Shown: positions 29,710-34,359 of the stretch, one piece after another | Position numbering within the stretch: position 1 is the stretch's first letter | Layout of the letters: each line of letters opens with the position of its first letter | Origin: Gemmatimonadales bacterium | GTDB lineage: Bacteria > Gemmatimonadota > Gemmatimonadetes > Gemmatimonadales > GWC2-71-9 | DNA: 42,344 nucleotides | Direction of reading: 5' to 3' | Assembly: GCA_036375015.1 (NCBI GenBank) | Contig: DASUSR010000091.1 | Span: 1 to 42,344, forward strand | Made by a program: the position numbers and the translations under genes | The notes under the pieces: generated by a model | Databases searched by the model: none | Told to the model about the DNA's origin: nothing | What the model saw: only the letters and a program-made list of their open reading frames with translations

Positions 29710-31680
29710 ATGCTCCATGCGTTGTTGCTGCTCGCCGCGCTCCAGCAGACCGGCCGGGCCGAGATCTCCAAGGTGACCATCCAGCCGGCCGACGTGGCGG
29801 TCGAGGTCGGTGATTCGGTGAAGCTCACCGCCAGCGCGGTGGACGCCGCGGGGCGTCCGGTGCGGGACGTGACGGTGCGCTGGTTCCAGGCCGGCGGGCA
29901 GTTCGAGGGCGTGGTGGACTCGAGCGGTCTGGTGCGGGCGGGGTCGGTCGGCACCCTGGCGGTGAGCGCCCTCGTGGCGCCCCGGCGGGGCGGCAGCCCG
30001 GTGACCGCGTTCGCGCGCGTCATCGTTCTCCCCCGACCGGCCAGCCGGATCGCCATCGAGCCTTCCCTGACCCGGCTGTACCAGGGCCAGACCGCGACGG
30101 TCGCCGCGGTGCCCTATTCGCCTGACGGCGACCGGCGGCAGGACGAGGTGGTCTGGTCCTCCGACGCGCCTGAAGTCGTGGCGGTGAGCGCCGGAGGTCG
30201 CCTCCTGGCCGGCCGACCGGGCCGTGCGACGGTCACGGCGAAGGCCGGGCGCGCCAGCGAGACCATGACGATCACGGTCGCTCCCAACCCCGCGGCCAGG
30301 GTGGCGCTCGAGCCCGCCCGGGCCTCGGTACGCACCGGGGACGTAGTCCGCTTCAGCTTTCTGGCCCGCACCGGGTCGGGGGAGGCGGTCAGGGACGCCG
30401 TGCCGGACTGGAGCCTCGCGCCGGGCCGCGGCCGGGTGGACCACGATGGGGCGTTCGTGGCCGACGCACCCGGCACCTATCGCGTGCTGGCCCACTTCGC
30501 CGGGAAGACGGCGGAAGCGGTCGTCGAGGTGCGCCCGCGGGATGTCCGGCGCCCGACCACGCTCGTCGGGCGGCTGCCGCTGCCGTTCCCGGCGGCGGAG
30601 TTCTGGCTCCACCCCGACGGGAAGCACGGCTACATCACCACCATGGGCGACCGCGCCTACGCGCTCGACCTGAGCGAGCCGGGGCGGCCGGTCATCACCG
30701 ACTCGGTGGTGGTGGATGCCCGTCACATCAACGATCTCATGACCACCGAGGACGGCAAGTACGGCGTGCTCACCCGGGAGAACGCCTCGACCCGCCGCAA
30801 CGGCATCGTGATCCTCTCCTTCGAGGACCCGGCCCACCCCAAGCCGATCGCCGAGTTCACGGAGACCGTCACCGGCGGCGTGCACAGCACCTTCATCTAC
30901 CGCGGGTACGTCTATCTCACCGACGATGCCACCGGCTCGCTCCGGGTGGTCGACATCCGCGATCCCTACCGGCCGCGCCAGGTGGCACGGTGGGAGACGC
31001 CGTCCAGCCGCGCGGGCAACTACGTCCACGATGTGGACGTCAAGGACGGACTGGCGTATCTGAGCTACTGGAACGACGGGCTGGTGATCCTCGACGTGGG
31101 CAACGGCATCAAGGGCGGCAGCCCGGAGGCCCCGAAGCTGGTCTCGCAGTTCAAATACGACCTCGACGCGCTCTACCGGGACGTCGAGGCGGTGGGCGGG
31201 CCGGGGTTCATCCGCGGCACCCACACGGCTTGGCGGCACGGCAAGTACGTGTTCGTCGGCGACGAGGTCTTCTCCGCCGCGCCGCGCCCGACGGAGGGAT
31301 CCGGCGTGAACGCGCTGGGACGTGCGTACGGACGGCTGCACGTCATCGATGTCTCGGACCTGACCCGTCCGAGGGCGGTGGCCCATTACGAGCCCAGAGA
31401 CGGGGGCGCCCACAACGTGTGGGTCGCCGGGGACACGCTCTATCTCGGCGATTACCAGGGCGGGCTCCGGGTGGTGGACATCTCCGGCGAGCTCCGCGGC
31501 GACCTGTTGAGCCAGGGCCGCGAGATCGCCCACGTGGTCACGGCCGACGGCAACGGCGTGCGGCCCTTCGCACCGAACACCTGGGGGGCGGTCTACCGCG
31601 ACGGGCTGATCTACGCCCCCGACATCAATACCGGGCTGTGGATCGTGCGGGTGGATTCGAGGTCGGAGCTGACACCGTAG
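29710..31680 (+). CDS. Secreted protein with Big_2 Ig-like domains and an LVIVD-repeat beta-propeller
   Basis: Three Big_2-like segments (VKLTASAVDAAG.., TATVAAVPYSPDG.., VRFSFLARTGSG..). These are followed by repeated LRVVDIRDP, GLVILDVG, LHVIDVSD, GLRVVDISG and GLWIVRVD motifs. Confidence 0.8.
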   Translation: MLHALLLLAALQQTGRAEISKVTIQPADVAVEVGDSVKLTASAVDAAGRPVRDVTVRWFQAGGQFEGVVDSSGLVRAGSVGTLAVSALVAPRRGGSPVTAFARVIVLPRPASRIAIEPSLTRLYQGQTATVAAVPYSPDGDRRQDEVVWSSDAPEVVAVSAGGRLLAGRPGRATVTAKAGRASETMTITVAPNPAARVALEPARASVRTGDVVRFSFLARTGSGEAVRDAVPDWSLAPGRGRVDHDGAFVADAPGTYRVLAHFAGKTAEAVVEVRPRDVRRPTTLVGRLPLPFPAAEFWLHPDGKHGYITTMGDRAYALDLSEPGRPVITDSVVVDARHINDLMTTEDGKYGVLTRENASTRRNGIVILSFEDPAHPKPIAEFTETVTGGVHSTFIYRGYVYLTDDATGSLRVVDIRDPYRPRQVARWETPSSRAGNYVHDVDVKDGLAYLSYWNDGLVILDVGNGIKGGSPEAPKLVSQFKYDLDALYRDVEAVGGPGFIRGTHTAWRHGKYVFVGDEVFSAAPRPTEGSGVNALGRAYGRLHVIDVSDLTRPRAVAHYEPRDGGAHNVWVAGDTLYLGDYQGGLRVVDISGELRGDLLSQGREIAHVVTADGNGVRPFAPNTWGAVYRDGLIYAPDINTGLWIVRVDSRSELTP

Positions 31681-31765: not shown

Positions 31766-32377
31766 ATGACAAGCCCCAACACGCTGGTTGTGCGCACCTT
31801 CACCGACCGGGCCGAGGGCCTCTCGCACTTCGTCCTGCGGGCCGGCGAGGCACCTCGGCTACTGGCGTTCGACGATGCGCTCGGTTGCCCGGTGGAGACC
31901 GCGCTGGCGGCGCTGGAGTGGACCGGCGCGGTCGGCATCCTGCTGGATGACGACCTGCTTCACGCCGCCCGGCTCACCAGCGAGACGGCCGCCGCGGTGA
32001 TCGAGCGGAAGGGGCCGGACGGCCGGCGCTACGTCTATCTCGGGCCCCGTCTCGACGCCCCGCCCATGGACGTGTTCGAGGGCGCCATCCTCTTCGATGA
32101 GCCCGGCGTCAAGGCGGTCGAGTTCACCCAGCGGGCGCACGCGCTGGCCCACTTCCTCCGCGCCACCGCCGGGGCGGGCGCGCTCCTGGCCCTGCTGGGC
32201 CGGCGGGCGCCCGAGCTTCGCCACCTGCGCCGCTGGCTGGGCCCCATCATCCAGGAGCTCGACGGCCCCCGGCCGCTGGTGGCGGGATGGTTCGCCGCGA
32301 GCGCCGCGGGGTGCCTCTTCTGCTCCGCGGACCGGGAGCCGACCTACCGATACATCGAGGTAGGACTCGAGTCCTGA
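31766..32377 (+). CDS. Hypothetical protein
   Basis: High GC3 throughout. No recognisable motif. Confidence 0.6.
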   Translation: MTSPNTLVVRTFTDRAEGLSHFVLRAGEAPRLLAFDDALGCPVETALAALEWTGAVGILLDDDLLHAARLTSETAAAVIERKGPDGRRYVYLGPRLDAPPMDVFEGAILFDEPGVKAVEFTQRAHALAHFLRATAGAGALLALLGRRAPELRHLRRWLGPIIQELDGPRPLVAGWFAASAAGCLFCSADREPTYRYIEVGLES

Positions 32378-32387
32378 GTTGGTGCAA

Positions 32388-32483
32388 TTGTGGATAAACA
32401 TCTCCACAAAGCTGTGGACGGACCCGGTAGGATGTACCGGCGGTAGGGGTTAGGAATCCACAATTTTCAACCCCGATCCACCA
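32388..32483. promoter_or_regulatory. Cluster of DnaA-box-like motifs (core TCCACA)
   Basis: TGTGGATAA 32389-97 (rc TTATCCACA, a perfect box), ATCTCCACA 32400-08, TGTGGACGG 32413-21, GAATCCACA 32454-62, and the weaker GATCCACCA 32475-83. Confidence 0.5.
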
Positions 32484-32501
32484 CGTAACCCGAATAAAAT
32501 C

Positions 32502-32530
32502 AGGCACTTGCGCGATCGGCGCAGGTGCCT
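32502..32530 (+). terminator. 12-bp hairpin (AGGCACUUGCGC-GAUCG-GCGCAGGUGCCU) flanked by A-rich and U-rich tracts
   Basis: Read directly from the sequence. One pair is a U-G wobble on the + strand only. It is followed by AUCUUAUUCU. Possibly the terminator of 31766..32377. Confidence 0.45.
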
Positions 32531-32564
32531 ATCTTATTCTCCACGCGCCGGCAGGACACGCGCT

Positions 32565-32968
32565 GAGACCCCGAGTCACAGTAGCGGCCAGCAGGCGGGT
32601 TCGAGCGGGATATCAGGGGAGAGAGCCGACGCAACCAAGGGCTCAGGTTCTCGTTGATCCTGGTGATCACCCCGGCTCGAACAGGTGAAGCCAGTCGCGT
32701 GCTTCACCCGCTCCGATCTAGCGCCTCGGAGCGCAGTGCGAAGGGTCGGTCCGCGACCCGATCCGACTCGCAGCGCTCGAATGGACGAACCAGGTGGGAT
32801 GGCCATCCGGCCTGGGGATGGAAGCCAAGGCTCCACCGCGCCCTCCCGAGCGGCGTATCAGCCAACCGGTGGCAGGTGGGAGAAGAACGGCGGCGGAAAC
32901 GCCACGACCTTGGTTAGTCCAATCGGGGAACGGCCGTCTAGCCACGACTAGGCGGCCGTTCTTTTTTT
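32565..32968 (+). ncRNA. Candidate structured ncRNA of unknown class (~400 nt; 5' end uncertain)
   Basis: A non-coding gap with lower GC and poor GC3 in its ORFs. It folds into multiple nested helices closed by CCCCGA 32569-74 / UCGGGG 32923-28, with a GNRA hairpin at 32892-32903, and ends in a strong terminator. Confidence 0.55.
32928..32968 (+). terminator. Strong intrinsic terminator
   Basis: A 14-bp stem (32928-32941 / 32948-32961, one U-G wobble) with a 6-nt loop, followed by T7 (32962-32968). Confidence 0.85.
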
Positions 32969-33996
32969 GCGGCACCCCAGTCGCTCGCCCCCCGGTAGGC
33001 CCTCCGTCGGTCCAACTGCCACACGCCGCGCGTGGTGAGCAATGCGTTACCGGTGTACTGCTCCGGGTCGGCCATGACCTGGGCCATGCTCGCGGTTTTG
33101 GCGCTCGCATCGTCGGCGTAGTGCAGCACCTCCGCCTCGAGCGTCATGGGCGGCGCCGCGGCCCCGAACTCGAGCCGGCCATGGTGGCTGGCCACCAGAT
33201 GCAGCAGCAGGAGCAACTCCGCCTCGGAACAGGGCGGAGGAGTTTGACCGCGGACCCGCCGGCTCAGCATGAGCAGCCCGAGTGCCACGTGGCCCAGAAG
33301 GGCGCCGGCGTCGGTGGCCTCGAAGCCGGTGGCCCAGCGATAGGCCTCGACCTTGCCGATGTCGTGGAGCAGGGCGCCGGCCAGGACCAGGTCGGCGTCG
33401 GCACCGCAGGCCTCGGCCACCGTCTGCCCGATGGCGGCGACCTCGCAGGTGTGCTGGAGCAGCCCGCCGATGGCCGCGTGGTGTCCCATGGTGCTCGCCG
33501 GGCACTGTCCGTAACGGCGACGGAATTCCGCATCGTCGTAGAAGAGCGACACGACCGCCGCGAGACGCGGGCCGCGGATGCGGGCCCGCCAGCCATCGAT
33601 GAGCGCCCAGCGTGGGGCTGCCTCCCCCGCGGAGGGAAGCAGCTCGGCGGCCTCCACCGACGACGGTGCATGCGTGATATGGGAGATCTCGATCTGCCGA
33701 CGCCCGCGATAGGACCGGACCTGGCCCGCGAGGTCCACGACCGCGCCCGGACCGATGCCCTGCAGCAGGTTCCGGCGGCCGCCCCAGAAGGGAGCGGAGT
33801 CGATGGCACCGGCGGCGTTGCGCAGGGTGAGCACCAGGCACTCCTTGCCCTCGCCGTAGTCCCGTGGCTCGACCGCGGTGACGAGGAAGCGGCCCGTGAG
33901 TCTGGCGCCCGGCGGCAGCCGTCCCGGCGGCGCCGCGGCGCATCCGTGGGCCGGCGCAACGCCCGCGGTTAAGCTTGAGGGATGACCCCCCGTCAT
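32938..33996 (-). CDS. yhaM: YhaM-like 3'-5' exoribonuclease (OB-fold + HD domain)
   Basis: HD-domain blocks LLHDIGKVEAY, LLGHVALG, HLVASHHGRLEFGAAAPPMTLEAEVLHYADDASAK are collinear with B. subtilis YhaM. There is an N-terminal OB-like region. The start is uncertain. Confidence 0.78.
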   Translation of the reverse strand: MTGGHPSSLTAGVAPAHGCAAAPPGRLPPGARLTGRFLVTAVEPRDYGEGKECLVLTLRNAAGAIDSAPFWGGRRNLLQGIGPGAVVDLAGQVRSYRGRRQIEISHITHAPSSVEAAELLPSAGEAAPRWALIDGWRARIRGPRLAAVVSLFYDDAEFRRRYGQCPASTMGHHAAIGGLLQHTCEVAAIGQTVAEACGADADLVLAGALLHDIGKVEAYRWATGFEATDAGALLGHVALGLLMLSRRVRGQTPPPCSEAELLLLLHLVASHHGRLEFGAAAPPMTLEAEVLHYADDASAKTASMAQVMADPEQYTGNALLTTRGVWQLDRRRAYRGASDWGAAKKERPPSRG

Positions 33997-34359
33997 GTGC
34001 TGGTTCTCGAGCGCGATCCGGACCGGAGAGCCCGGTTGCTGGAGCAGTTCCGCTCGACGGGCGACCACGCGGTGGCCGCACCCGACGGGGCCGCGGCCGC
34101 GGCAGCGATCGCGCTGCCGGGCTTCGACGCGCTGATGCTGGACCTCGGCACGGCGGATCTCGACCTGGGGCGGTTACGGGAGGCGCTGGCGCCGGCACGG
34201 CCGGCCGAGCCGGAGTCGCTGGAGCAGGCGGAGCGTCGGCACATCGCGCTGGTGCTGGCGCATACGGGAGGCAACAAGCGGCAGGCGGCGCGCCTGCTCG
34301 GGATCTCGCGGTCCACCCTGCTGCACAAGGTACGGAAGTACCGTCTGGAAGGCCGTTGA
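33982..34359 (+). CDS. Small regulator: truncated receiver-like domain fused to a Fis-type HTH (NtrC-like without the AAA+ domain)
   Basis: VLVLERDPDRR...DALMLDL is receiver-like. The C-terminal GNKRQAARLLGISRSTLLHKVRKY is a Fis/NtrC HTH. An alternative GTG start lies at 33997. Confidence 0.7.
   Translation: MTPRHVLVLERDPDRRARLLEQFRSTGDHAVAAPDGAAAAAAIALPGFDALMLDLGTADLDLGRLREALAPARPAEPESLEQAERRHIALVLAHTGGNKRQAARLLGISRSTLLHKVRKYRLEGR

What the first reader, a model, noticed from the sequence alone, without database searches (positions are those of the whole stretch)
32565..32968. Unassigned ~400-nt multi-helix RNA candidate between convergent genes
The gap 32378-32937 is the longest non-coding stretch in the window and is visibly less GC-rich than its surroundings. 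The ORF-track ORFs inside it (32654..32917, 32685..32951, 32576..32836) have only about two-thirds G/C at third positions by my count. Neighbouring genes have roughly 90%, so I treat these ORFs as non-coding.

The + strand folds into a closed architecture:
- Closing helix CCCCGA 32569-74 / UCGGGG 32923-28.
- 8-bp GUUCGAGC 32599-606 / GCUCGAAC 32675-82, enclosing an interrupted stem capped by GAGCC 32623-27 / GGCUC 32640-44.
- Hairpin GUGAAGC 32685-91 / GCUUCAC 32701-07.
- Helix 32726-41 / 32768-80, capped by GGGUCG-GUCCG-CGACCC 32743-59.
- Hairpin CCAGG..GGAU-GGCC-AUCC..CCUGG 32790-32815.
- GNRA hairpin GGCG-GAAA-CGCC 32892-32903.
- A 14-bp stem plus U7 terminator, 32928-68.

Several of these pairs are G-U wobbles on the + strand only, which supports a + strand transcript. 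I find no RNase P strings (GGAAAGUCCGG, ACAGAACCCGGCUUA). I find no tmRNA T-arm/CCA end or Ala-Ala-ending tag ORF, and no SRP helix-8 motif. There is also no downstream + strand gene that a riboswitch could control. The convergent YhaM-like exoribonuclease gene ends inside the terminator hairpin.
Basis: partly seen in the sequence, partly recalled or inferred. Interest (0 to 1): 0.72.

Follow-up and report, generated by a model that had tools for sequence, protein, structure and literature searches.

The report
New large structured RNA of Gemmatimonadota
The gap holds a real, roughly 425-base non-coding RNA gene with its own promoter and terminator, conserved across soil Gemmatimonadota, with a covariation-supported fold; it matches no Rfam 15 family and its function is unknown.

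Summary
Window 32542-32968 (+) is a structured RNA gene. Rfam 15 and ARAGORN find nothing. The element is 86% identical to a Gemmatimonadales MAG whose flanking HD protein is only 63% identical. More than 120 metagenomic copies were recovered. On 70 non-redundant copies, 125 base pairs are 93% paired and 95 show compensatory double changes (937 cells, against 284±18 in shuffles). G-U pairs outnumber A-C 763 to 135, which fixes the + strand. No ORF is conserved.

Its 5'/3' closing helix and two inner helices fail. An about 140-nt invariant core carries two perfectly complementary invariant loops, and the peripheral domains are dispensable.

Upstream lies about 150 bp of conserved DNA: 3-4 TGTGGA/TCCACA boxes, an A-rich element, and TTGCGN-N16/17-TAtcTT in 60 of 60 copies. 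A U-tract terminator ends the unit. The whole unit is inverted in one genome, so it is autonomous.

An orphan 203-aa protein is the upstream neighbour in 65 of 69 loci.

Function is not shown. My best guess is an abundant RNP scaffold RNA. It is a new RNA family, lineage-specific, and comparable in kind to OLE, raiA or Ms1.

The parts
32389..32462 (.). Cluster of four TGTGGA/TCCACA boxes, read as factor-binding DNA upstream of the promoter. The boxes are TGTGGATAA at 32389-97 (reverse complement TTATCCACA), ATCTCCACA at 32400-08, TGTGGA at 32413-18 and GAATCCACA at 32454-62.
   Evidence: The boxes are conserved as sequence in 92 homologues. Copies carry 2-4 boxes. Clusters of at least 3 boxes within 110 nt occur upstream of the RNA in 89 loci plus L008, and nowhere else in 775 kb. 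No covarying helix is found here. The resemblance to DnaA boxes comes from my own knowledge and is not tested.
32485..32507 (+). Conserved upstream element GTAACCCGAATAAAATCAGGCAC. It is A-rich and lies about -35 to -57 from the predicted start, where an UP element or activator site would sit.
   Evidence: The consensus is cgTAAcCCGAA.AaA..caGGCaC, with more than 90% conservation at the capital letters. GGCACTTGCG occurs at the RNA promoter in 82 loci. Elsewhere it occurs 5 times: one is the shifted promoter of L008 and two or three lie in the p223 coding sequence.
32508..32535 (+). Core promoter: -35 TTGCGC (32508-13), 16-nt spacer, -10 TATCTT (32530-35).
   Evidence: All 60 of 60 sequences with the GGC[AG]CTTGCG motif have an xAxxxT hexamer 16 nt (51) or 17 nt (9) downstream. 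The commonest hexamer is TATCTT. The spacer sequence varies, so the window's hairpin 32502-30 is not conserved. The simple consensus scan missed this promoter. The transcription start is inferred, not mapped.
32542..32968 (+). The RNA itself, about 425 nt. The 5' end is predicted (±3 nt) from the -10 hexamer; the 3' end is the U7 tract.
   Evidence: Conservation. Covariation: 125 pairs, 93% paired, 95 pairs with double changes, 0 of 500 shuffles reaching the observed values. Strand: 763 G-U against 135 A-C. No conserved ORF.
32547..32597 (+). Stem-loop I. It consists of an outer interrupted helix, a middle helix, and the terminal hairpin GAGAC-CCCGA-GUCAC (32565-79).
   Evidence: The terminal hairpin shows compensatory changes, but only about 80% of cells are paired (helices 1-2). 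In 54 of 63 homologues this segment folds as one closed hairpin. The outer helices were read by eye. This is the weakest part of the model.
32599..32682 (+). Stem-loop II, a long irregular hairpin. Its helices are 32599-606 / 32675-82, 32614-17 / 32659-62 and 32621-26 / 32647-52, with a variable cap. Its internal loops are conserved and include the palindrome GGUGAUCACC (32662-71).
   Evidence: helices 3-7: all 11 pairs of the basal helix and all 6 pairs of helix 5 have compensatory changes. Searches agree. The whole stem-loop is absent from L008.
32684..32708 (+). Core hairpin P-a: GGUGAAGC / GCUUCACC with the invariant loop CAGUCGCGU.
   Evidence: 8 of 9 pairs have compensatory changes and 97.9% of cells are paired (helix 8). 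The loop is invariant in all 12 pattern-independent copies.
32709..32733 (+). Core hairpin P-b: CGCUCCGA / UCGGAGCG with the conserved loop UCUAGCGCC.
   Evidence: helix 9: 96.9% paired, with 4 pairs showing double changes. A candidate pseudoknot joins AGCGC 32720-24 to GCGCU 32773-77. Four of its pairs are invariant and the fifth is AU 27, GU 23, GC 6, UU 7. This is suggestive only.
32734..32777 (+). Core element P-c. UGCGA 32737-41 pairs with UCGCA 32768-72 and encloses GGGUCGG 32743-49 / CCGAUCC 32758-64, with the invariant loop UCCGCGAC (32750-57).
   Evidence: helices 10-11. The loop segment CGCGAC (32752-57) is the exact complement of GUCGCG (32694-99) in the P-a loop, in 67 of 67 copies and in 12 of 12 pattern-independent copies. 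Because both are invariant, the loop-loop pairing is inferred and has no covariation support.
32779..32924 (+). 3' domain, closed by 32779-86 / 32917-24. It contains the core hairpin P-d (32790-32815, loop GGCC) and the conserved GGGGAUCGAA. It also contains a dispensable arm, 32825-32913, which carries 32832-35 / 32877-80 and the GNRA hairpin 32892-903.
   Evidence: helices 12-20. The arm 32824-32917 is missing in L008, L013, L019, L025, L044, L052, L056, L084 and L095.
32927..32968 (+). Intrinsic terminator: a 15-bp stem (32927-41 / 32948-62) followed by U7. It overlaps the last roughly 30 nt of the convergent HD gene.
   Evidence: 12 of 15 pairs have compensatory changes and 95.3% of cells are paired (helix 21). 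A T-rich tract follows the stem in most aligned homologues.
31766..32377 (+). p223, a 203-aa orphan protein that is the usual upstream neighbour (the ORF can be read from 31706). It is a possible partner of the RNA, but the link is not shown.
   Evidence: It lies upstream in 65 of 69 loci. It is directly adjacent in 36, and a secreted protein gene of about 190 aa sits between in 29. It is 55-95% identical across loci, more conserved than the HD protein. It has no hit in Pfam, NCBIfam, PHROGs, PADLOC or PDB sequences. The AF2 model has pLDDT 78.8 and no Foldseek match at E<=0.001. The family is narrow: 128 representatives in 1.84 billion.
32938..34068 (-). Convergent HD-domain protein of the YhaM family of 3'-5' exoribonucleases. 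The likely true length is about 335 aa. It is a neighbour, not necessarily part of the system.
   Evidence: PF01966, and NF010007 below its cut-off. It lies downstream in only 47 of 90 loci.

Best explanation
The locus is an autonomous gene for a stable, highly structured non-coding RNA of about 425 nt. The RNA belongs to a previously undescribed family found in Gemmatimonadota.

**What the sequence comparisons show**
- A conserved sigma-70-type promoter: TTGCGN, a 16-nt spacer, then TAtcTT.
- An A-rich upstream element and a specific cluster of TGTGGA/TCCACA boxes precede the promoter.
- A U-tract terminator ends the unit.
- The RNA folds as a row of stem-loops around an invariant core of about 140 nt (P-a, P-b, P-c, P-d).
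- The peripheral domains can be lost.

**What I infer**
- The core is compacted by a 6-bp loop-loop interaction (GUCGCG with CGCGAC) and possibly by a pseudoknot.
- The promoter layout resembles that of stable-RNA promoters, so the RNA is probably abundant and regulated by a box-binding factor.

**Best guess at the mechanism (not shown)**
The RNA acts in trans as the scaffold of a ribonucleoprotein. The invariant loops would be the recognition surface. The lineage-specific 203-aa protein p223, encoded next to it, is the leading candidate partner.

**How sure**
The confidence given (0.85) is for the claim that this is a real, autonomous structured-RNA gene of a new family. The RNP-scaffold mechanism I put at about 0.45, and p223 as the specific partner at about 0.3.
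For: **Conservation**
- The element is 86% identical over 587 nt where the neighbouring HD protein is only 63-64% identical.
- More than 120 copies were found in soil and sediment metagenomes, and none in viral contigs.

**Structure**
- 125 pairs are 93.0% paired, against 82.5% in shuffles and 33-44% when the partners are slid.
- 95 pairs have double changes, giving 937 compensatory cells against 284±18 in shuffles. One search agrees.
- G-U outnumbers A-C 763 to 135 in paired cells, which fixes the + strand.
- The region is non-coding.

**Family membership of the window copy**
- A covariance model built without the window finds it once, at 171.8 bits and E=3e-35.
- The same model finds one copy in each of 33 of the 35 tested loci. 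The two without a hit are the chance pattern matches.

**Promoter and boxes**
- The promoter is present in 60 of 60 copies, with a variable spacer.
- The box clusters occur only upstream of the RNA.

**Autonomy**
- In L131 the whole unit, from the boxes to the terminator, is inverted relative to p223.
- The minimal form in L008 starts at P-a.

**Link to p223**
- p223 is the upstream neighbour in 65 of 69 loci.
- All 4 of 4 loci seeded from p223 carry the RNA.
- Both the protein and the RNA are confined to Gemmatimonadota as far as sampled.
Against: - There are no expression data, so the transcript, its ends and its abundance are all inferred.
- The partner role of p223 rests on synteny within one phylum. 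Insertion of another gene between the two is tolerated (29 of 65), and so is inversion (L131). Four loci lack p223.
- The fold of p223 gives no hint of RNA binding.
- The loop-loop pairing involves invariant bases, so covariation cannot support it.
- The metagenome sample was drawn with a pattern that fixes 19 core bases. This understates the diversity of the family and inflates the conservation seen at those positions in L011-L130.
Confidence: 0.85

Rival explanations
1. It is a catalytic or ligand-binding RNA, such as a new ribozyme or a trans-acting sensor, and not a protein scaffold. The invariant core would form an active site or a binding pocket.
For: - Unpaired core nucleotides are conserved to an extreme degree, while the helices covary freely.
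- The predicted tertiary contacts would compact a core of about 140 nt.
- The peripheral domains are dispensable.
- From my own knowledge, large complex-folded bacterial RNAs have often turned out to be ribozymes.
Against: - No match to any ribozyme or riboswitch family in Rfam 15, even at E<=10.
- No substrate, cleavage site or regulated downstream gene is evident, because the RNA ends at a terminator facing a convergent gene.
- Nothing here tests catalysis or ligand binding.
Confidence: 0.15
2. It is a processed 3' untranslated region or operon-internal RNA of the p223 operon. In this reading it acts in cis on that operon's stability or expression.
For: - It lies directly downstream of p223, or of p223 plus the secreted-protein gene, in the same orientation in most loci.
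- No convincing terminator lies between the upstream stop codon (32377) and the RNA, so read-through transcription is likely.
Against: - A promoter with fixed spacing is conserved in 60 of 60 copies.
- In L131 the whole unit is inverted and follows the HD gene instead.
- Four loci have no p223 upstream.
- The boxes and promoter always travel with the RNA.
Confidence: 0.07
3. It is an RNA polymerase-binding regulator analogous to 6S RNA or Ms1. In this reading it accumulates in slow growth and sequesters RNA polymerase.
For: - It is a lineage-specific, single-copy, probably abundant RNA with a strong regulated promoter and a terminator, as described for Ms1 in Actinobacteria (PMC9130861, PMC4191392).
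- No 6S match was seen in the window or the loci scanned. That covers only about 70 kb in all.
Against: - The covariation-supported fold is a row of hairpins. It is not the long rod with a central open-promoter-like bubble described for 6S, to which Ms1 is said to be structurally related (PMC9130861).
- The Ms1 synteny (HAD-IB hydrolase and oxidoreductase, PMC9130861) is absent.
- Whether these genomes carry a normal 6S gene was not tested.
Confidence: 0.07
4. The conservation is at the DNA level. In this reading the region is a replication origin or another DnaA-binding or regulatory DNA region, and the RNA structure is incidental.
For: - Four boxes resemble DnaA boxes, and one is a perfect TTATCCACA.
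- The upstream part is the most A+T-rich stretch, at 52% G+C.
Against: - Compensatory base changes with a G-U/A-C asymmetry are a signature of RNA, not DNA.
- There is no GC-skew switch at the locus.
- The flanking genes converge on it.
- This reading could at most apply to the 150-bp upstream part, which I already interpret as regulatory DNA.
Confidence: 0.03

Closest known systems
OLE RNA (Rfam RF01071) and its Oap protein partners
   Same: Both are large, ornate, lineage-restricted bacterial non-coding RNAs with highly conserved unpaired nucleotides. In both, a gene for a lineage-specific protein of unknown fold sits next to the RNA. From my own knowledge, OLE works as an RNP.
   Different: There is no sequence or structure match. 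The phylum differs: Gemmatimonadota here, anaerobic and extremophilic Firmicutes for OLE. The size differs: about 425 nt, or about 190 nt in the minimal form, against about 610 nt. p223 has no similarity to any known family, and no partner has been demonstrated.
raiA motif / ModT RNA (PMC11706538)
   Same: Both are structured non-coding RNAs with complex tertiary structure and their own transcription unit. Both are conserved across whole phyla. The function of raiA stayed unknown for long after its discovery.
   Different: There is no Rfam match. raiA occurs in different phyla (Bacillota and Actinomycetota). The architecture differs, and this RNA is about twice the size.
Ms1 RNA and 6S RNA (PMC4191392, PMC9130861)
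   Same: Both are phylum-specific, single-copy stable RNAs with a strong promoter and a terminator. Ms1 was also invisible to standard homology searches.
   Different: The fold is not a rod with a central bubble. The Ms1 synteny is absent. No evidence of RNA polymerase binding exists.
Stable-RNA promoters of the rrn P1 type (from my own knowledge)
   Same: The layout matches: upstream factor-binding sites, an A-rich element just upstream of -35, and a 16-nt spacer. A Fis-family (HTH_8) protein is encoded about 1 kb away.
   Different: The boxes do not resemble the E. coli Fis consensus and look more like DnaA boxes. No binding or regulation data exist.
RNase P RNA, tmRNA, SRP RNA
   Same: The size class matches, and these too are housekeeping RNAs with their own promoter and terminator.
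   Different: There is no Rfam or ARAGORN match. The conserved RNase P strings are absent. No tRNA-like end and no tag reading frame were seen when I read the sequence.

Membership tests
Any Rfam 15 family (4227 covariance models) | Score at or above the family's gathering threshold, or at least a consistent sub-threshold match in several homologues | tested here: not met
   There are 0 hits at gathering thresholds on the whole window. The only hit on 32300-33050 is a microRNA model at E=8. In 12 homologous loci scanned at E<=10, no match was identified over the RNA itself and no bacterial family recurs; the recurring matches are microRNA models on long hairpins outside the RNA (checked for L018).
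tmRNA | tRNA-like acceptor and T-arm with a CCA end, plus a short tag reading frame ending in Ala-Ala | tested here: not met
   ARAGORN, which covers both standard and permuted tmRNA forms, finds none. The Rfam tmRNA models do not match. Reading from the GCG after CCAGUC gives the unconserved 88-codon ORF, not a tag.
Bacterial RNase P RNA | Conserved P4 strands (GGAAAGUCCGG and ACAGAACCCGGCUUA) and the type A or type B architecture | tested here: not met
   Both strings are absent from the window on both strands. There is no match to the RNaseP_bact_a or RNaseP_bact_b models at E<=10.
6S RNA / Ms1 RNA | A long, largely double-stranded rod with a central bubble; binding to RNA polymerase; for Ms1, flanking HAD-IB hydrolase and oxidoreductase genes | tested here: not met
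   The covariation-supported fold is a series of separate hairpins. There is no 6S match. The flanking genes are p223 and an HD-domain protein, whereas the Ms1 synteny is as described in PMC9130861. RNA polymerase binding cannot be tested with these tools.
Riboswitch or cis-regulatory leader | Location in the 5' UTR of a co-oriented regulated gene | tested here: not met
   The RNA ends in a terminator. The next gene is convergent in the window, and it varies between loci.
RNAs tied to mobile elements or phages (GOLLD, ROOL, HEARO/omega RNA, bridge RNA, retron RNA) | Association with a prophage, transposase, IscB/TnpB or reverse transcriptase; often several copies | tested here: not met
   There are 0 matches in 2.9 million viral contigs. 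The copy is single in every source searched with the model (the window and 43 loci). The neighbours are ordinary chromosomal genes. There is no Rfam match.
The new family defined here (model R1 for the core) | The core P-a/P-b/P-c/P-d with the invariant loops CAGUCGCGU and UCCGCGAC, preceded by the GGCACTTGCG promoter and followed by a terminator | tested here: met
   The window scores 171.8 bits (E=3e-35) against a model built from 23 homologues no more than 75% identical to it, with the window itself excluded. The promoter and the terminator are present.

The most novel reading that the evidence does not exclude
This is a previously unknown housekeeping ribonucleoprotein, or a ribozyme, specific to the phylum Gemmatimonadota. 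A core RNA of about 140 nt, locked by kissing loops, would work together with an orphan 203-aa protein of unassigned fold. It would be expressed from a promoter laid out like those of ribosomal RNA operons and controlled by a factor that binds DnaA-box-like sites. That would couple an unknown RNA-based function to growth or to the replication state.
Probability: 0.25. Interest if true: 0.85.

Novelty: categorically new. Interest (0 to 1): 0.74.

Why it matters
Large, intricately folded bacterial RNAs are rare. Nearly every one whose function was solved revealed basic biology: RNase P, tmRNA, 6S, SRP, and more recently OLE, the omega RNAs, and the GOLLD and ROOL assemblies.

This one has covariation support comparable to curated families. 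It has a small invariant core suited to structural work, and natural minimal variants that mark what is essential. It also has a specific promoter with its own operator-like boxes, and a candidate protein partner of unknown fold.

It belongs to Gemmatimonadota, an abundant but poorly studied soil phylum that has cultured representatives. Transcript mapping, pull-downs and knock-outs would be feasible there if a cultured strain carries the locus, which was not checked.

Even if the function proves modest, the family fills an annotation gap. It should also stop its internal ORFs from being mis-called as genes.

Tried and rejected
**Ms1 RNA.** I first took the window for an actinobacterium. I rejected this because the organism is Gemmatimonadales, the Ms1 synteny is absent, and the fold differs.

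**tmRNA, including permuted forms, and RNase P.** Some short strings look similar by eye: UUCGAGCGGGAU, CCAGUCGCG and GCUCCACC. They lie in helices or in variable positions, and the models do not match.

**Protein-coding.** Rejected.

**Replication origin.** Rejected because there is no GC-skew switch and the genes converge.

**The hairpin 32502-30 as terminator of p223.** Rejected because its 3' arm is not conserved. It lies across the -35 hexamer and the spacer.

**CsrA-type sponge.** My own hand count, not a tool result, gives about 11 GGA motifs. That is near the chance expectation of about 9.

**Searches that led nowhere**
Genome-wide co-occurrence, and presence in cultured Gemmatimonas, could therefore not be checked.
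- The first AF2 model of p223 was unusable, at pLDDT 54.
- The second model was usable, at pLDDT 78.8, but has no significant Foldseek match in the PDB.
- p223 and the inserted secreted protein have no significant hit in any profile library searched or in PDB sequences.
- Eight literature searches found no description of this RNA.
Full report
**1. What is in the sequence**

The window comes from a Gemmatimonadales-like genome with about 71% G+C. The closest relatives of its proteins are named Gemmatimonadales or Gemmatimonadota.

The gap 32378-32937 lies between two genes:
- a 203/223-aa ORF with no known domain, here called p223 (31706/31766-32377, + strand);
- a convergent HD-domain protein of the YhaM exoribonuclease family (32938-34068, - strand).

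The gap is less G+C-rich than its surroundings (62% against 71%). Its internal ORFs have GC3 of 0.61-0.69, against 0.85-0.92 in the neighbours.

Rfam 15 gives no hit on the window at gathering thresholds, and only a chance microRNA hit (E=8) in sensitive mode on the gap. ARAGORN finds no tRNA or tmRNA.

The single sequence folds better than shuffles on both strands (z = -3.6 on +, -3.0 on -). That is suggestive but does not decide anything.

**2. Conservation**

The decisive evidence comes from relatives.
- In a Gemmatimonadales MAG (L001) the HD protein is only 63-64% identical, yet the intergenic DNA is 85.7% identical over 587 nt.
- Loci fetched through other HD-protein homologues show the same pattern, at 67-98% identity.
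These come mainly from soils and sediments. The same pattern has no match in 2.9 million viral contigs.
- Two of the 120 (L091, L115) are chance matches; the rest are homologues.
- Ninety-two copies are full length, and 70 are less than 93% identical to one another.
- Conservation runs from about 32389 to 32967 and drops on both sides.

One caveat applies. The pattern fixes 19 bases of the core. Invariance at those positions among L011-L130 is therefore by construction, and the diversity of the family is understated. Where it matters I used the 12 copies found through proteins instead.

**3. It is an RNA, on the + strand, and not coding**

- On the 70-sequence alignment A3, RNAalifold predicts 75 pairs, and 61 of them have compensatory double changes.
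- A fuller model, folded domain by domain, has 125 pairs in 21 helices.
- In that model 93.0% of cells form standard pairs. The figure is 82.5±0.2% after shuffling partners and 33-44% when partners are slid by 1-3 columns.
- Ninety-five pairs have changes on both sides (63.8±3.2 in shuffles).
- There are 937 compensatory cells, against 284±18 in shuffles and 131-218 when slid. None of 500 shuffles reaches any observed measure.
- Within paired cells there are 763 G-U/U-G against 135 A-C/C-A. This is the asymmetry expected only if the + strand is the RNA.
- The internal ORFs are intact in 10 of 59 and 12 of 61 homologues. Length differences are not multiples of three. Substitutions show no codon periodicity.
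- A covariance model of the core, built from 23 homologues no more than 75% identical to the window and excluding it, finds the window once, on the + strand, at 171.8 bits (E=3e-35). It also finds one copy in each true homologous locus and none in the two chance loci.

**4. Anatomy**

The proposed closing helix 32569-74 / 32923-28 is paired in only 65% of cells and shows no covariation.

The RNA is instead a row of elements:
- **Stem-loop I** (32547-97). Its terminal hairpin is GAGAC-CCCGA-GUCAC. This is the weakest part of the model.
- **Stem-loop II** (32599-32682). It has strongly covarying inner helices, a variable cap and conserved internal loops.
- **Three adjacent core hairpins.** P-a is 32684-708, with loop CAGUCGCGU. 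P-b is 32709-33, with loop UCUAGCGCC. P-c is 32734-77, with loop UCCGCGAC.
- **A 3' domain** closed by 32779-86 / 32917-24. It holds the core hairpin P-d (32790-815), the conserved GGGGAUCGAA, and a long arm with the GNRA hairpin (32892-903).
- **The terminator**.

- The cap GGGUCG/CGACCC has only breaking changes. The register GGGUCGG/CCGAUCC has compensatory ones.
- The '32726-41 / 32768-80' helix is really the 3' arm of P-b plus the short helix 32737-41 / 32768-72.

Natural deletion variants define the essentials. L008 lacks stem-loops I and II and the 3' arm, so it is about 190 nt of RNA. Eight other copies lack the 3' arm. The core is always present.

The P-a loop segment GUCGCG (32694-99) and the P-c loop segment CGCGAC (32752-57) are exact complements. 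Both are invariant in all 67 true homologues kept from A3 and in all 12 pattern-independent copies. A 6-bp loop-loop contact is therefore a reasonable inference, but covariation cannot test it.

A second candidate contact joins AGCGC 32720-24 to GCGCU 32773-77. It has one variable pair, which is AU 27, GU 23, GC 6 and UU 7. This is suggestive only.

**5. The upstream 150 bp is regulatory DNA**

No covarying helix is found between 32385 and 32545. Several sequence blocks there are conserved.

In all 60 copies that carry GGC[AG]CTTGCG, an xAxxxT hexamer lies 16 nt (51 copies) or 17 nt (9 copies) after TTGCGN. The commonest hexamer is TATCTT. The spacer sequence varies freely. So the terminator-like hairpin that the scan reported at 32502-30 in the window is not conserved.

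I read this as a promoter:
- -35 TTGCGC at 32508-13;
- -10 TATCTT at 32530-35;
- predicted start near 32542.

It is preceded by an A-rich conserved element (32485-507). Further upstream are 2-4 TGTGGA/TCCACA boxes (32389-462). Clusters of these boxes occur upstream of the RNA in 89 loci plus L008, and nowhere else in 775 kb of fetched DNA. The -35 motif is similarly specific.

From my own knowledge, the boxes resemble DnaA boxes, and the first is a perfect TTATCCACA. The overall layout resembles stable-RNA promoters of the rrn P1 type. Neither point was tested. The region is not a replication origin: there is no GC-skew switch and the genes converge.

**6. Context**

- p223 is the upstream neighbour in 65 of 69 loci with enough sequence. 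It is directly adjacent in 36.
- In the other 29, a gene for a secreted protein of about 190 aa lies between. In L131-L133 that gene overlaps p223 by 4 nt.
- The HD gene follows in only 47 of 90 loci.
- All 4 of 4 loci seeded from p223 homologues carry the RNA core.
- In one of them (L131) the whole unit, from the boxes to the terminator, is inverted relative to p223 and follows the HD gene. The unit is therefore autonomous and is not a 3' UTR.

p223 itself remains unassigned.
- It is more conserved than its neighbours, at 55-95% identity.
- It has no hit in Pfam, NCBIfam, PHROGs, PADLOC or PDB sequences.
- It belongs to a narrow family: 128 representatives, mostly fragments, among 1.84 billion.
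- Its AF2 model (pLDDT 78.8, pTM 0.73) has no Foldseek match in the PDB at E<=0.001. The best match is CYTH-like at E=0.018 with TM about 0.2.

The rest of the neighbourhood is ordinary chromosomal DNA.

**7. Interpretation**

The comparisons show an autonomous, single-copy gene for a structured RNA of about 425 nt. It has a conserved promoter region, a covariation-supported fold and a terminator, and it is present across sampled Gemmatimonadota.

I infer the transcription start, the high and regulated expression, and the kissing-loop compaction of the core.

My best guess at function is a trans-acting scaffold of a ribonucleoprotein. The invariant loops would be the recognition surface, and p223 is the leading candidate partner. 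I put about 0.3 on p223 specifically. I put about 0.85 on the statement that this is a real RNA gene of a new family.

The rivals are:
- a ribozyme or ligand-binding RNA (0.15);
- a 6S/Ms1-like binder of RNA polymerase (0.07);
- a cis-acting part of the p223 operon (0.07);
- a purely DNA-level element (0.03).

**8. Novelty**

No Rfam 15 family matches. Eight full-text literature searches found no description of this RNA.

In kind it belongs with the orphan large structured bacterial RNAs such as OLE, raiA/ModT and Ms1, but it is not a member of any of them. I rate it categorically new as a family, with the caveat that its function, and therefore its true kind, is unknown.

Noticed in passing
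window 32389-32462: There are four TGTGGA/TCCACA boxes in alternating orientation, and the first is a perfect DnaA-box 9-mer (TTATCCACA on the - strand). Such clusters occur only upstream of this RNA in 775 kb of related DNA. The binding factor is unknown; DnaA, or the nearby Fis-family protein, are candidates.
   Followed up: partly
window 33982-34359 (+): A 125-aa Fis-family (PF02954, HTH_8) protein is encoded divergently from the HD gene. The pair is conserved in many related loci. The ORF overlaps the over-long N-terminal extension of the mechanically called 376-aa HD ORF, so the true HD start is probably near 33945 (homologues are about 335 aa).
   Followed up: partly
window 31766-32377; L131 3501-4720, L132 3501-4660, L133 3501-4672: p223 is an orphan protein that is very highly conserved (up to 95% identity where neighbours are about 65%). 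It has a confident AF2 model and no structural match. In many genomes it overlaps by 4 nt a gene for a secreted helical protein of 180-200 aa, which is also without known domains.
   Followed up: partly
L131 4760-5330 (- strand): In this 2.4-Mb contig the whole RNA unit is inverted relative to p223. Its core also differs at the pattern positions (GATCCGCAGCGC instead of GACTCGCAGCGC). The 19-base search pattern therefore missed part of the family.
   Followed up: yes
window 32662-32671 and 32800-32803: Conserved palindromes sit in apparently unpaired positions: GGUGAUCACC in an internal loop of stem-loop II, and GGCC as the loop of P-d. They could mediate RNA-RNA dimerisation, or be protein sites.
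   Followed up: no
L018 639-726 and L117 1101-1198: Long, near-perfect hairpins attract many spurious microRNA model hits. In L018 the hairpin lies just downstream of the RNA's terminator; the position of the L117 hairpin relative to the RNA was not worked out. Their nature is unknown.
   Followed up: no
window 29710-31680 (+): A 656-aa protein with Big_2 and LVIVD-repeat domains precedes p223. It is syntenic in many related loci, at 60-90% identity.
   Followed up: no
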